Below, piece by piece: positions 6,001 to 9,000 of a stretch of 49,469 nucleotides of DNA. The stretch's first letter is position 1, and each line of letters starts with the position of its first letter. The stretch lies in the IMG/VR virus record IMGVR_UViG_2698536620_000015, one strand, 5' to 3'. The stretch is from a virus. Lineage: Duplodnaviria > Heunggongvirae > Uroviricota > Caudoviricetes. A program made the position numbers.

Positions 6001-9000
6001 TCGTGGCGTTTTGTGTCTGTGGAGAAACTAACGCATGAACAGTTTAACGGCAAATAACCGTTTGTCGCAACAGCTGGTGGTCAGCGTCGCTGAACACCTG
6101 TTGTTACGGCATGAATGCAGATTACCAAATCACCTGGCTGTAAGTAACCACAGAGAACTTTACCTGACTGTGGGGGGCGAGTTGTGCAGGAACTTAACCG
6201 CTGGTTTCGTGACGGAAGAGGACTTTATGTTCATGTTATTCGTTGGGAGCCAGAAACACAGCGCGTTATCTATCTTCGCAAAGACTACCCGCATGAGTGC
6301 TTTAGTCCTTTGTGGAAATTCAGGCGTGATTTTGTTGAGTGTGAAGGACCACCAGCACATTGATTCTGCCATTCCGGGACGTTACACTGTTCAGGCACCT
6401 TATAAAGCGGGTGCCGGGATTGGCGTCCTGGAATTGATCAAGGCGATATATGACGCGCCAGCGTCTTTTTTATCGTCCGCATTTGCTCACATCAAAGTTA
6501 TGGTGGGCTGGGCGGGGGCATCGAAAGATGCGCCGGTTTCCTTGATCACCGGTTACGCCAACCCCGTTCAGTTCACCACCAGCGAAATTGGCGTTTCCGG
6601 TGGTGGAAGTATTTCACCGATCAAGGAGGCTGCCATCATGGCTACTGTCCCAGCCCTCACTCGTCTGAATGATGAAGACTTACATAAACTCAGTTATGTA
6701 ACAACTGCACTACGTGCTCTGCGCAAGGTAACTCTTTCGGATCCGCAGGCACATCAGGTTCTGGTAGAAACCCTTCTTAACTTGCAAGCTGAACGTATTC
6801 GTCTGGCGGATAAGGCTAATTTTCATATTCACCGTCTCCTGAATATCAGCGGAGGGCATCGTCATGCTTAATCCGTTGATCCTCAATATTTGCCGTTTGC
6901 TTCAGCGTAAAAAAATATCAATTCCTACAGTTGGGCAGTGGTACACCACGCCTGCAGGGCATGTTCTACGTGTTAGCCTGGTTGACCGTGAATGCCAGAA
7001 GGTGATTTGTGAACCGCTGGGCCGTAATTACCGCGTCAGTATGCCGCTTATAGCCTTTCGCTCCGGAAAAAACATGAAGCATCTCGGAGGTGCAGCATGA
7101 GTATGGAGCTGATGGTTAAAGCGATGAAAATTCGAGTGGGTAATCCATTGCGAAAACTGGTTCTGATCAAGCTGGCTGATAATGCCAGCGATCAGGGTGA
7201 GTGCTGGCCCAGCTACCAGCATATTGCTGACCAGTGCGAAATTAGCAAACGTTCTGTGATGAATCATATTGCGGCCCTTTGTGAGTCCGGGCTGGTAAAA
7301 AAAGTCACCCGGAAAGGTGAAAAAGGTAACTCAAGTAATATCTATCTCCTTCATCTGGATGGTGCAGGAGATTCACTAGGGGGTAGTGCAAATAATTCAC
7401 TATCTGGTGCAGCAAATTCACCAGGTAGTGCAGGAGTTGCACCAGGGGGTAGTGCAGGAGATTCACCCAGAACCAGTCACTCTTTTGAACCAGTCAAAGA
7501 ACCAGTCAATGAACCAATAGCTGTTGGTGCATCAGTTGATGAGTCCGTGCGAGTTCGTTCAAACCGACCGGAATACTCTCCGGAGTTTGAGCAGGCATGG
7601 CTGGCATATCCCAAACGTGCTGGTGGCAATTCAAAATCTGCAGCCTTCAAAGCCTGGAAAGCCCGTTTGAATGAGGGAGTAAACCCCGAAACCATGCTGG
7701 AAGGTGTGAAACGCTACGCGGGATGGGTATCTGCGATGGGTAACAGCGGCACACAATTTGTGAAACAGGCTGTCACGTTCTTTGGTCCGGATCGTCATTT
7801 CGAAGAATTCTGGGAAGTTCCTGCGGTATCTGCAGCCAGACGCGAGGACCCGTACTTCAAAGCCAGTTACGACAACGTGGACTACAGCCAGATCCCGGCA
7901 GGATTCAGGGGGTGATCATGAGTCTTTTGAATGAAGTTCAGAAATTCATTGAAGCCCATCCGGGGTGTACTTCCGGAGACATTGCGGATGCTTTTGCAGG
8001 TTACTCACGGCAGCGCGTTCTGCAGTCAGCAAGCAAGTTACGTCAGAGTGGGCGTGTGGCTCACCGTTATGAAGGAGATACACGCAGACATTTCCCACGC
8101 CTGACTGAGAGAGCGCAGGAGCCGGAACCACAACCAGTTCGTGAAACCAGACCTGTGCGCAATTTCTATGTCGGCACTAACGATCCCCGGGTGATTTTGT
8201 GCCTGACCCGCCAGGCGGAAGAACTGGAGTCCAGGGGCTTATACCGTCGTGCTGCAACGGTGTGGATGGCGGCATTCCGTGAAAGCCACTCCCAGCCAGA
8301 ACGAAACAATTTTCTGGCGCGTCGTGAGCGGTGCTTACGGAAAAGCAGCAAGCGCGCTGCATCGGGTGAAGAGTGGTATCTGTCAGGGAATTACGTGGGG
8401 GCTTAATGAGTAATAAATATTGCCAGGCGCTGGTGGAGCTGCGGAACAAACCAGCCCATGAACTGAAGGAAGTGGGCGATCAGTGGCGCACGCCGGATAA
8501 CATTTTCTGGGGAATTAACACCCTGTTTGGCCCGTTTGTTCTGGATCTGTTCACTGATGGTGATAACGCCAAATGTGCCGCTTATTACACTGCGGAAGAC
8601 AACGCGCTGGCGCATGACTGGTCTGAACGTCTTGCGGAGCTTAAAGGTGCTGCCTTTGGTAATCCCCCGTACAGCCGCGCCAGTCAGCATGAAGGGCAAT
8701 ACATCACCGGCATGCGTTACATCATGAAACATGCCAGTGCCATGCGTGATAAGGGCGGACGCTATGTTTTCCTGATCAAAGCTGCCACCAGCGAAGTGTG
8801 GTGGCCGGAAGATGCAGATCATATTGCTTTTATTCGCGGGCGTATTGGTTTTGAACTGCCTGCCTGGTTTATCCCGAAGGACGAGAAGCAGGTGCCGACA
8901 GGCGCTTTCTTCGCTGGTGCTATTGCTGTTTTCGACAAGACCTGGAAGGGACCGGCAATCAGCTACATCGGGCGCGATGAACTTGAGGCATGTGGTGAGG

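What the first reader, a model, noticed from the sequence alone, without database searches (positions are those of the whole stretch)
7361..7530. Iteron-like tandem repeats embedded in the replication initiator gene (candidate origin)
About five imperfect direct repeats of roughly 20 bp, then three AACCAGTCA repeats and a more AT-rich stretch, lie inside the O-like gene, where they encode a Gly/Ser/Ala-rich linker. The lambda origin sits inside gene O in the same way.
Basis: partly seen in the sequence, partly recalled or inferred. Interest (0 to 1): 0.45.

Follow-up and report, generated by a model that had tools for sequence, protein, structure and literature searches.

The report
Phage replication origin inside initiator gene
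Five evenly spaced 15-bp repeats plus a conserved downstream box, all inside this prophage's only replication gene, are very probably its replication origin: the layout is the textbook lambda one, but the initiator protein is unrelated to lambda O and I found no description of this common origin in the papers I could search.

Summary
Five copies of GTGMA-N5-TKCAC lie at 7362, 7386, 7407, 7428 and 7452 (spacing 24, 21, 21, 24). They are the only matches in 49 kb. Three GAACCAGTCA boxes follow at 7470, 7487 and 7499.

All lie in gene 7097-7915. This encodes a 272-aa winged-helix (Pfam HTH_36) replication initiator that shows no sequence homology to lambda O. The repeats encode a linker predicted to be disordered.

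About 90 homologous genes from many Gammaproteobacteria have the same layout: 3-7 dyad repeats at 21-24 bp, ending 2 bp before the box. Three results show constraint on the DNA, not the peptide:
- In 35 of 84 loci, 23+22-bp spacings put one repeat in another reading frame.
- The repeat sequence tracks the recognition helix.
- Mosaic genes carry the N-terminal domain and its repeats together.

The box is conserved at synonymous sites (codon identity 93% against 41%) and is read in all three frames. The AT-rich part of the claim is weak: 38-43% GC against 51% overall.

Verdict: a lambda-plan origin embedded in the initiator gene, supported by comparison only. It is a new member of a known kind. 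The box is the one new element. Interest is moderate.

The parts
7097..7915 (+). Replication initiator gene (272 aa): N-terminal winged helix, disordered linker, C-terminal helical domain.
   Evidence: ORF. Pfam HTH_36, E=1.8e-11, above the family cut-off. PHROG 270 'replication initiation protein', E=2.4e-88. 98-99% identical to the SfV orf39, mEp460, Stx2c-phage and Stx2a_WGPS2 replication genes.
7097..7360 (+). Coding region for the N-terminal winged-helix DNA-binding domain (aa 1-88), the proposed reader of the iterons.
7320..7359 (.). Least stable 40-mer near the gene (33% GC), directly upstream of iteron 1. It encodes the wing of the winged helix.
   Evidence: Nearest-neighbour stability profile places it at the 98.6th percentile of the window. 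The 40 nt before the first iteron are about 10 GC points below the gene average in 89% of 73 homologous loci.
7362..7376 (.). Iteron 1, GTGCAGGAGATTCAC.
7386..7400 (.). Iteron 2, GTGCAAATAATTCAC.
7407..7421 (.). Iteron 3, GTGCAGCAAATTCAC.
7428..7442 (.). Iteron 4, GTGCAGGAGTTGCAC, with perfect 5-bp inverted arms GTGCA/TGCAC.
7452..7466 (.). Iteron 5, GTGCAGGAGATTCAC. It ends 2 bp before the conserved box, as in nearly all homologues.
7467..7517 (.). Conserved box region: CC-AGAACCAGTCAC-TCTTTT-GAACCAGTCAAA-GAACCAGTCAAT-GAACCA. GAACCAGTCA copies lie at 7470, 7487 and 7499. Proposed unwinding or helicase-entry zone, or a host-factor site.
   Evidence: three copies, unique in the window. Nucleotide-level conservation across 72 distinct loci. 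Codon identity given identical amino acid is 93%, against 41% in the N-terminal domain. Copy 1 is read as RTSH and copies 2-3 as EPV, and other genera read the motif as NQS. 106 of 123 box pairs in IMG/VR lie behind this N-terminal domain.
7535..7912 (+). Coding region for the C-terminal domain (aa 147-272), presumed to be the replisome-recruiting part. It is one of at least 9 interchangeable C-terminal classes.
   Evidence: PHROG 1701 'DnaD-like helicase loader', 3729 and 26426. No Pfam or NCBIfam match. tblastn hits are annotated 'phage replisome organizer', YdaU or DUF1376. Clustering gives 9 classes among 72 loci.

Best explanation
The segment 7362-7517 is the core of the phage's replication origin, embedded in the gene of the protein that fires it.

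Proposed mechanism, all steps inferred. Dimers of the initiator's N-terminal winged-helix domain bind the five 15-bp dyad-symmetric iterons (GTGMA-N5-TKCAC). The 21-24-bp spacing is about two helical turns, so all sites face the same side of the helix. Binding builds a wrapped nucleoprotein complex like the lambda O-some. The strain opens the adjacent lower-GC, sequence-conserved GAACCAGTCA box region (7467-7517), and perhaps the AT-rich 7320-7359 flank. The initiator's C-terminal domain then brings in the host helicase. This last step is suggested because the phage carries no helicase, loader or primase gene of its own in the early operon.

Because the DNA must also be translated, it encodes a Gly/Ser/Ala-rich linker that is predicted to be disordered and tolerates whatever the iterons dictate.

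Shown here: the repeats exist; they are unique in the window; they are conserved in architecture; they are constrained at the DNA level; they covary with and are co-inherited with the DNA-binding domain.

Inferred: binding, unwinding, helicase loading and origin activity.
For: 1. Uniqueness. All five matches to GTGMANNNNNTKCAC and all three AACCAGTCA in 49 kb lie in 7362-7508.

2. Conserved architecture. 84 homologous loci from phages and from many genera (Enterobacter, Pseudomonas, Aeromonas, Shewanella, Xenorhabdus, Avibacterium, Vibrio and others) were scored. Most carry 3-7 copies of a 15-bp unit. Spacings are 21 (103 cases), 24 (80), 23 (32) and 22 (31). The last unit ends 2 bp before the box.

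3. Constraint on the DNA.
- In 35 of 84 loci a 23+22-bp pair of spacings puts one unit in another reading frame, where it reads VVQEIH instead of GAGDSP.
- In Pseudomonas phage phi2 the unit GCAGGAAATGCAC occurs in all three codon phases.

4. Specificity module.
- The recognition-helix class tracks the iteron class. SKRSVMNH and SRRSVINH go with GTGnA..TnCAC. S(K/R)STVRxH goes with TGCCA..TGGCA or TAGGC..AGCA. DRRTAMRH goes with GTGAy..GTCAC.
- Mosaic proteins P0066, P0069 and P0072 join a foreign N-terminal domain and its own repeats to the window-type C-terminus exactly at the box.

5. Copy number varies in whole units among near-identical genes. There are 2 to 9 units in proteins of 250-302 aa. 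cdtI has +66 bp (three extra units), and the boxes vary by 12 bp. This parallels 4 versus 6 iterons in lambda versus Stx phages (PMC7466680).

6. The linker encoded by the repeats is predicted to be disordered, aa 91-157.

7. This is the only recognisable replication gene between cI and 11.6 kb. No other short repeat array exists there.

8. Same plan as ori-lambda: four 18-bp dyad iterons spaced 20, 24 and 23 bp in the middle of gene O. It is also the plan predicted for phages P22 and L (PMC8022706).
Against: - No experiment bears on this. Binding, unwinding and origin firing are all inferred.
- There is no strongly AT-rich tract. The box region is 38-43% GC, against a visibly far more A+T-rich tract after the lambda iterons.
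- No DnaA box with one mismatch or fewer lies in 7000-8000, and no promoter-like site was found.
- The dyad symmetry of the window's units is imperfect. Only iteron 4 has perfect 5-bp arms.
- The initiator is not a lambda O homologue, so lambda biochemistry cannot simply be transferred.
- How a phage without its own loader recruits DnaB is unknown. The C-terminal domain has no curated family match.
Confidence: 0.8

Rival explanations
1. The repeats are only a by-product of a low-complexity, slippage-prone linker. Selection acts on a flexible Gly/Ser/Ala peptide, and the DNA has no function of its own.
For: The peptide is Gly/Ser/Ala-rich and predicted to be disordered. Copy number changes in whole units, as slippage would produce.
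Against: - Units are kept at 21-24 bp even when this shifts them into another reading frame and changes the peptide (35 of 84 loci; three phases in phi2).
- The peptide repeat differs completely between relatives (GAGDS, MPADST, PSDKMSP, GAGAA), while the DNA keeps its GTG..CAC dyad arms and its phasing.
- The repeat class follows the recognition helix.
Confidence: 0.03
2. The units are binding sites for the initiator, but they serve autoregulation or copy control rather than initiation. They might act as a transcriptional roadblock or operator in the initiator's own gene, or as handcuffing or incompatibility sites. The true origin would lie elsewhere.
For: Iteron-binding plasmid initiators commonly also autoregulate (general knowledge of RepA, RepE and pi systems). 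The absence of a strongly AT-rich tract and of DnaA boxes here weakens the origin assignment.
Against: - No promoter-like site lies in 6800-8100 for an operator to control.
- No other cluster of these sites, and no other short repeat array, exists in the 49-kb window.
- The layout matches ori-lambda closely: dyad units at about two-turn spacing in the linker-coding part of the initiator gene.
- The array is always followed at a fixed 2-bp distance by a second conserved DNA element. That fits a composite origin better than an operator.
- Both roles could coexist.
Confidence: 0.1
3. For the GAACCAGTCA box only: it is not an origin element. It would be a conserved peptide motif (RTSHSFEPVKEP) that contacts a host protein, or a short homology 'linker' that promotes recombinational swapping of C-terminal modules.
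For: The box sits exactly at the junction where at least 9 unrelated C-terminal classes are exchanged. In most loci it encodes a similar peptide.
Against: - Synonymous positions are conserved. Codon identity given identical amino acid is 93%, against 41% in the N-terminal domain. Box third positions not used for anchoring carry about 1.4 bits, against 0.58.
- The DNA motif persists when read as RTSH, EPV or NQS in different genera, so the peptide is not what is kept.
- A neutral recombination linker would not stay identical between Vibrio, Aggregatibacter and E. coli phages whose flanking N-terminal domains are only 66-74% identical at the protein level.
- A recombination role could be a side effect of conservation.
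Confidence: 0.2

Closest known systems
ori-lambda, and the 933W and P27 Stx-phage origins, inside gene O
   Same: - Four to six dyad-symmetric repeats at 20-24-bp spacing, in the middle of the initiator gene, encoding the inter-domain linker.
- They are followed by the region that is unwound.
- Iteron number varies between relatives and changes the protein length.
- Sources; PMC7466680.
   Different: - The initiator here is a Pfam HTH_36 winged helix with no detectable sequence homology to lambda O.
- Units are 15 bp rather than 18.
- The flank is a sequence-conserved GAACCAGTCA box at about 40% GC, not a strongly A+T-rich tract.
- No P-type loader gene follows.
Predicted origins inside gene 18 of phages P22 and L
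   Same: Phage-specific repeats lie inside the coding region of the origin-binding protein. They were assigned as the origin by sequence inspection and genetics, and the initiators diverge according to origin specificity (PMC8022706).
   Different: - Those initiators are distant lambda O relatives and are partnered with a DnaB-type helicase gene (gene 12).
- Their repeat sequences are unrelated; in phage L the unit is an 11-bp TGTCCAACGGA.
- That paper describes no box shared between the phages.
Bacillus phage SPP1 oriL inside gene 38 (G38P replisome organiser) and the B. subtilis DnaD N-terminal winged helix
   Different: There is no significant sequence relationship beyond the fold. The host range (Gammaproteobacteria) and the repeat sequences differ. 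The DnaD N-terminal domain is known mainly as a tetramerisation module, whereas here the recognition helix covaries with the DNA repeats.
Iteron-type plasmid origins (RepA, RepE, pi, TrfA)
   Same: Arrays of 3-7 directly repeated sites of about 20 bp are read by a winged-helix initiator. Copy number and sequence define specificity and incompatibility.
   Different: Plasmid iterons are intergenic, are usually accompanied by DnaA boxes and an AT-rich 13-mer region, and are bound by Rep monomers. Here the sites are intragenic and dyad-symmetric, suggesting dimers, and no DnaA box is present.

Membership tests
Lambda-plan phage origin (iterons embedded in the initiator gene) | Three or more direct copies of a 15-20-bp, internally dyad-symmetric sequence at about two-helical-turn spacing. 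| tested here: met
   Five GTGMA-N5-TKCAC units at spacing 24, 21, 21, 24 bp, unique in the window. Lambda has four 18-bp units at spacing 20, 24, 23.
Lambda-plan phage origin (iterons embedded in the initiator gene) | The array lies within the initiator's own coding sequence, in the part that encodes the linker between the DNA-binding and C-terminal domains. | tested here: met
   The array encodes aa 89-124 of the 272-aa initiator, between the winged helix (aa 1-88) and the helical C-domain (aa 160-223). pLDDT is below 50 for aa 91-157.
Lambda-plan phage origin (iterons embedded in the initiator gene) | Iteron sequence is type-specific and changes together with the initiator's DNA-binding domain among relatives. 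| tested here: met
   Recognition-helix class tracks iteron class over 84 loci. Mosaics keep the N-terminal domain and its repeats together.
Lambda-plan phage origin (iterons embedded in the initiator gene) | A strongly A+T-rich unwinding tract directly next to the last iteron. | tested here: inconclusive
   The 40-mers after the last iteron are 38-42% GC against a 51% window mean, at the 94th percentile of instability. The stretch upstream of the array is 33% GC. In homologues the box is about 10 GC points below the gene mean, and about 18 points below in high-GC genes. This is far less extreme than the lambda tract.
Lambda-plan phage origin (iterons embedded in the initiator gene) | The initiator binds the repeats and the segment supports initiator-dependent replication. 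| not testable with these tools
   This needs EMSA or footprinting and a minimal-replicon assay.
Lambda O protein family (Pfam Phage_rep_O) with a P-type partner | The initiator matches Phage_rep_O or is homologous to lambda O. | tested here: not met
   Pfam gives HTH_36 and sub-threshold DnaD_N, with no Phage_rep_O hit. hhalign of the N-terminal profile against lambda O gives probability 6.7%.
Lambda O protein family (Pfam Phage_rep_O) with a P-type partner | A helicase-loader or helicase gene (P, DnaC-like or DnaB-like) lies directly downstream. | tested here: not met
   The downstream genes are PerC-like, Dam, LexA-DBD-like, RusA, KilA-N and DUF968/HNH. Relatives with other C-terminal domains do have a helicase, primase-helicase or P-like gene.
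HTH_36 / DnaD-N-like winged-helix replication initiators | Pfam HTH_36 above the gathering score, and a winged-helix fold. | tested here: met
Eru6-type replication module of Shiga-toxin phages | An HTH_36 protein near-identical to that of the type phage Stx2a_WGPS2, with a Rha/Ash gene between it and cI. | tested here: met
   98.3% nucleotide identity to AP012537 over the whole gene (H24). AP012537 is the Eru6 representative (PMC8951638). An Ash-domain protein is encoded at 6035-6871.
Iteron-type plasmid origin | Intergenic iterons accompanied by DnaA boxes. | tested here: not met
   The array is intragenic. No TTATCCACA with one mismatch or fewer occurs in 7000-8000.

The most novel reading that the evidence does not exclude
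The GAACCAGTCA box (window 7467-7517) is a previously unrecognised, sequence-specific origin element. It is shared by thousands of temperate-phage initiator genes across Gammaproteobacteria and is distinct from the type-specific iterons. It is kept at the nucleotide level, read in all three frames, and fixed 2 bp after the last iteron, whichever of at least 9 C-terminal or helicase-recruiting modules follows. It would be the common unwinding or helicase-entry signal, recognised as DNA by the conserved core of the initiator or by a host factor. On this reading a specific motif replaces the generic A+T-rich tract of lambda.
Probability: 0.45. Interest if true: 0.55.

Novelty: new member of a known kind. 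Interest (0 to 1): 0.4.

Why it matters
- **Prevalence.** The array is in 922 of 5,426 complete E. coli genomes, where the gene is annotated only as 'helix-turn-helix domain-containing protein'.
- **Medical relevance.** It is the replication module of Eru6-type Shiga-toxin phages, SfV, ST64B, cdtI and mEp460. The paper that defines these modules states that nothing is known about how Eru phages replicate (PMC8951638). By general knowledge, phage genome amplification drives toxin gene dosage after induction.
- **What a located origin allows.** It gives direct targets for replication and incompatibility experiments, and a rule for annotating origins in thousands of prophages: a winged helix, then 21-24-bp-phased dyads, then the box.
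- **Dual coding.** It is a clean natural example of DNA that serves two purposes, with binding sites dictating the sequence of a tolerant disordered linker.
- **The box.** It is a testable lead on how origins that lack an obvious AT-rich tract are opened.

Tried and rejected
- **Tandem Repeats Finder and the generic repeat finder.** They split the array into overlapping 21- and 24-bp families and miss its register. The degenerate dyad pattern resolves it.
- **DnaA boxes, GATC clusters and promoter-like sites.** None were found in or next to the array, so a DnaA-dependent plasmid-like origin and an operator-promoter reading gained no support.
- **Homology to lambda O.** Rejected.
- **Literature.** Full-text searches found no description of this origin. 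They covered the box sequence, HTH_36 with origin, SfV/orf39 with iterons, and Eru phages. The library lacks most subscription journals, so an older description cannot be excluded.
- **First IMG/VR scan.** It returned only near-identical copies. These were useful for copy-number polymorphism but not for diversity; the species-level genome scan supplied the diversity.
- **Plasmids.** I looked for a minimal replicon using this gene alone. Only ~40-kb phage-sized 'plasmids' and chromosome-sized records turned up, so no natural mini-replicon test is available.
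Full report
**1. What is there**

The interval 7361-7530 lies inside ORF 7097-7915(+), which encodes 272 aa. The degenerate pattern GTGMANNNNNTKCAC matches five times in the 49,469-base window. All five matches are here: 7362, 7386, 7407, 7428 and 7452, spaced 24, 21, 21, 24 bp. Chance expectation is 0.33, and no shuffle out of 100 reached 5.

The pattern is its own reverse complement, so each unit has outer inverted arms GTGMA/TKCAC. Iteron 4, GTGCAGGAGTTGCAC, has perfect arms.

Two bases after the last unit comes AGAACCAGTCAC-TCTTTT-GAACCAGTCAAA-GAACCAGTCAAT-GAACCA. The three AACCAGTCA copies (7471, 7488, 7500) are the only ones in the window. TRF and the generic repeat finder see the same arrays in fragments. 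No other short-period array exists in the early region.

The 'AT-rich stretch' is weak. The 40-mers after the array are 38-42% GC against a window mean of 51%. The least stable 40-mer near the gene lies upstream of the array, at 7320-7359 (33% GC).

**2. The gene**

Pfam gives HTH_36 (E=1.8e-11, above the cut-off) and a sub-threshold DnaD_N hit, with no Phage_rep_O. PHROGs gives 'replication initiation protein' for the whole protein and 'DnaD-like helicase loader' or primosomal families for aa 145-272. A profile of the N-terminal domain does not align with lambda O (probability 6.7%).

AlphaFold2 on a 21-sequence alignment gives three parts:
- a confident winged helix for aa 1-85 (pLDDT 80-92 over most of it);
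- a disordered stretch at aa 91-157, which is exactly the part encoded by the repeats and the box;
- a moderately confident helical C-domain at aa 160-223.

The gene is 98-99% identical to the replication genes of Stx2c phages, mEp460, SfV (orf39), cdtI and Stx2a_WGPS2, and 89% identical to ST64B sb42. Stx2a_WGPS2 is the type phage of the 'Eru6' replication module. The defining paper states that nothing is known about replication of Eru phages, and it mentions neither iterons nor a replication origin (PMC8951638).

The genes between cI (4478-5152) and 11.6 kb are Rha/Ash, a small ORF, this initiator, PerC-like, Dam, LexA-DBD-like, RusA, KilA-N and DUF968/HNH. None is a helicase, loader or primase.

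**3. Close relatives: copy-number polymorphism**

- cdtI has a 66-bp duplication, giving three extra units.
- PhiR63_1 has one extra GAACCAGTCAAA, and Stx2c_EH0430 has one fewer.
- In 80 IMG/VR loci with an identical N-terminal domain, the unit count is mostly 5 (range 4-7) and the box count mostly 3 (range 2-5). Changes are always in multiples of three bases.
- In the protein database, proteins at least 87% identical range from 242 to 302 aa. P0028 (250 aa) has two units and P0001 (302 aa) has nine.

This parallels four versus six iterons in lambda versus 933W and P27, where the extra iterons add 13 residues to O (PMC7466680).

**4. Distant relatives: the decisive comparison**

I read twelve phage homologues (Vibrio, Klebsiella, Salmonella SI5, Min27, Aggregatibacter S1249, Morganella, mEp044, SfII, YeP1 and Pseudomonas phi2). 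I also read 80 prophage loci from a one-genome-per-species collection whose N-terminal domains are 66-84% identical to the window's. An array sits directly after the winged helix in the large majority of them.

*(a) Layout.* Over the 84 loci scored, the spacings are 21 (103 cases), 24 (80), 23 (32) and 22 (31). Copy number is mostly 4-5. The last unit ends 2 bp before the box, and the last spacing is almost always 24.

*(b) Reading frame.* In 35 of 84 loci a 23+22-bp pair of spacings moves one unit into another frame, so the same DNA reads VVQEIH instead of GAGDSP. In phi2 the unit GCAGGAAATGCAC occurs in all three codon phases, giving PQEMH, SSKCT and AGNA. A repeat selected as a peptide could not behave this way.

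*(c) Peptide versus DNA.* The peptide repeat is unrecognisably different between relatives: GAGDS, MPADST, PSDKMSP, GGAGAA. The DNA keeps its dyad form. Examples are Min27 GGGCAGGAGCTGCCC, D186 GTGACAAAATGTCAC, Klebsiella TGCCATCTGATGGCA and phi2 GTGCAGGAAATGCAC.

*(d) Covariation.* The repeat class follows the recognition helix, aa 47-64:

| Recognition helix | Iteron class |
|---|---|
| SKRSVMNH, SRRSVINH | GTGnA..TnCAC |
| S(K/R)STVR(K/N)H | TGCCA..TGGCA or TAGGC..AGCA |
| DRRTAMRH, SKRSVMRH | GTGAy..GTCAC |
| SRTTAINH | GTGTAAAAATTACAC |

*(e) Co-inheritance.* Mosaic proteins P0066 (Min27-type) and P0069 and P0072 (Klebsiella-type) carry a foreign N-terminal domain with its own repeats, fused to the window-type C-terminus.

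Points (b) to (e) are what is expected if the winged helix binds the repeats.

**5. The box**

Seventy-six of 81 loci could be anchored on AGAAYCAGTCA, giving 72 distinct contexts. The consensus is CC-AGAACCAGTCAC-TCTTTT-GAACCAGTCAAT-GAACC.

- *Synonymous sites.* Among 55 loci in the canonical frame, codon identity to the window, given an identical amino acid, is 93% in the box against 41% in the N-terminal domain. The six box third positions not used for anchoring carry 0.84-1.87 bits (about 1.4 on average), against a mean of 0.58 for N-terminal third positions.
- *Reading frame.* In the window, copy 1 is read as R-T-S-H and copies 2-3 as E-P-V. Avibacterium and Haemophilus read the second copy as N-Q-S. 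Shewanella reads both copies as E-P-V.
- *Composition.* The box stays near 41% GC even in genes of 55-62% GC.
- *Association with this family.* A scan of IMG/VR for two boxes 12-17 bp apart gave 123 matches. Of these, 106 have this N-terminal domain upstream, and about six more are truncated loci with visible iterons.
- *Module junction.* Downstream of the box, 72 loci fall into at least 9 C-terminal classes that share no BLASTP similarity at E of 1e-6 or better. The relatives examined have differing downstream genes: a helicase, a primase-helicase, a P-like protein, or none.
- *Diverged relatives.* More distant family members have related boxes: phi2 has GAACCGTCA twice and SfII has GATCCGTCAG twice.

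The box is therefore a DNA element tied to the conserved N-terminal module and independent of the helicase-recruiting module. What reads it is unknown.

**6. Interpretation**

The layout matches ori-lambda point for point. Lambda has four 18-bp dyad iterons spaced 20, 24 and 23 bp in the middle of gene O, followed by the region that opens. The same kind of inference has been made for P22 and L gene 18 (PMC8022706).

I conclude, at about 0.8 confidence, that 7362-7517 is the core of this phage's origin. Initiator dimers would bind the five phased units, and opening and helicase entry would occur in the adjacent box or the AT-richer flank. The C-terminal domain would recruit host helicase, because the phage encodes none. 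Binding, unwinding and firing are inferred, not shown.

Rivals:
- A purely peptide-level repeat is contradicted by the frame data.
- An autoregulatory or copy-control role cannot be excluded and could coexist, but no promoter and no second site cluster was found.
- For the box, a peptide motif or recombination-linker reading is disfavoured by synonymous-site conservation and three-frame reading. The box does mark the module junction.

**7. Novelty**

The principle is textbook. This instance belongs to a different initiator family from lambda O. It is present in 17% of complete E. coli genomes, where the gene is annotated only as a helix-turn-helix domain protein. It belongs to a family of several thousand protein clusters (5,426 with E of 1e-5 or better). 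The searchable literature does not describe it, although that library omits most subscription journals.

I rate it a new member of a known kind, of moderate interest. The conserved box is the one feature that could prove to be a new kind of origin element.

Noticed in passing
window 7386-7520 (+), alternative frame; L103 and L130: The +1 frame across the iterons is open (44 aa, MQIIHYLVQQIHQVVQELHQGVVQEIHPEPVTLLNQ...). In two relatives (Pseudomonas bharatica L103 and Erwinia tracheiphila L130), a 23-bp last spacing shifts the initiator gene into this frame. The result is truncated proteins of 133 and 118 aa that contain only the N-terminal domain. They may be decayed prophages or natural DNA-binding-domain-only variants.
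   Followed up: partly
window 14919-15334, 30328-30551, 33295, 34173-34183, 34991-35271, 39065-39085, 40101-40121, 43615-43911, 48607: The window contains runs of N (masked or unresolved sequence), mostly in the late and structural region. They do not touch the finding.
   Followed up: no
window 33800-34558 and 48415-48606: Two long tandem repeats in the late region: a 386-bp unit in 2.0 copies (98% matches) and a 69-bp unit in 2.8 perfect copies. Both lie next to N runs, so they could be real tail-gene repeats or assembly effects.
   Followed up: no
window 4478-11594: The early-right operon has no helicase, helicase-loader or primase gene. Its genes are Rha/Ash (6035-6871), a 78-aa ORF (6864-7100), the initiator, PerC-like (7912-8406), Dam methylase (8373-9059), a LexA-DNA-binding-domain protein (9056-9382), RusA (9379-9768), KilA-N (9740-10597) and DUF968/HNH (10599-11594). 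Adjacent genes overlap by a few bases (6864-6871, 7097-7100, 7912-7915), which suggests translational coupling.
   Followed up: partly
L014 (SfII) 2429-3370 and L015 (YeP1) 2429-3445: A more distant branch of the same initiator family (38.8% and 34.8% identity over aa 22-87 of the N-terminal domain) has 12-bp TCAAAATCTGAC-like units at 15-bp spacing. They are followed by two GATCCGTCAG boxes that contain Dam (GATC) sites, in phages that encode a Dam methylase. This hints at methylation-sensitive origin control in that branch. The window's box has no GATC.
   Followed up: partly
PLSDB records of Arsenophonus nasoniae, e.g. NZ_CP123533.1 (H127-H136): Many 28-104-kb (mostly about 40-kb) Arsenophonus 'plasmids' encode an N-terminal homologue (60% identity) of this initiator. 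They may be phage-plasmids that use this replication module for extrachromosomal maintenance.
   Followed up: no
L202 (IMGVR_UViG_2521172680_000011) about 4540-4610: A triple AAACCAGTCAGTGGA repeat follows a different winged-helix-like coding region (…GYLKRYPVQDPKTGKISHWETAVYE…). The profile built from this family's N-terminal domains does not detect that region. The AACCAGTCA motif may therefore be used by another initiator lineage.
   Followed up: no
window 7305-7320 (- strand): A terminator-like hairpin plus T-run lies on the minus strand inside the initiator gene, just upstream of the array. The count is within chance expectation (1 found, 1.4 expected).
   Followed up: no
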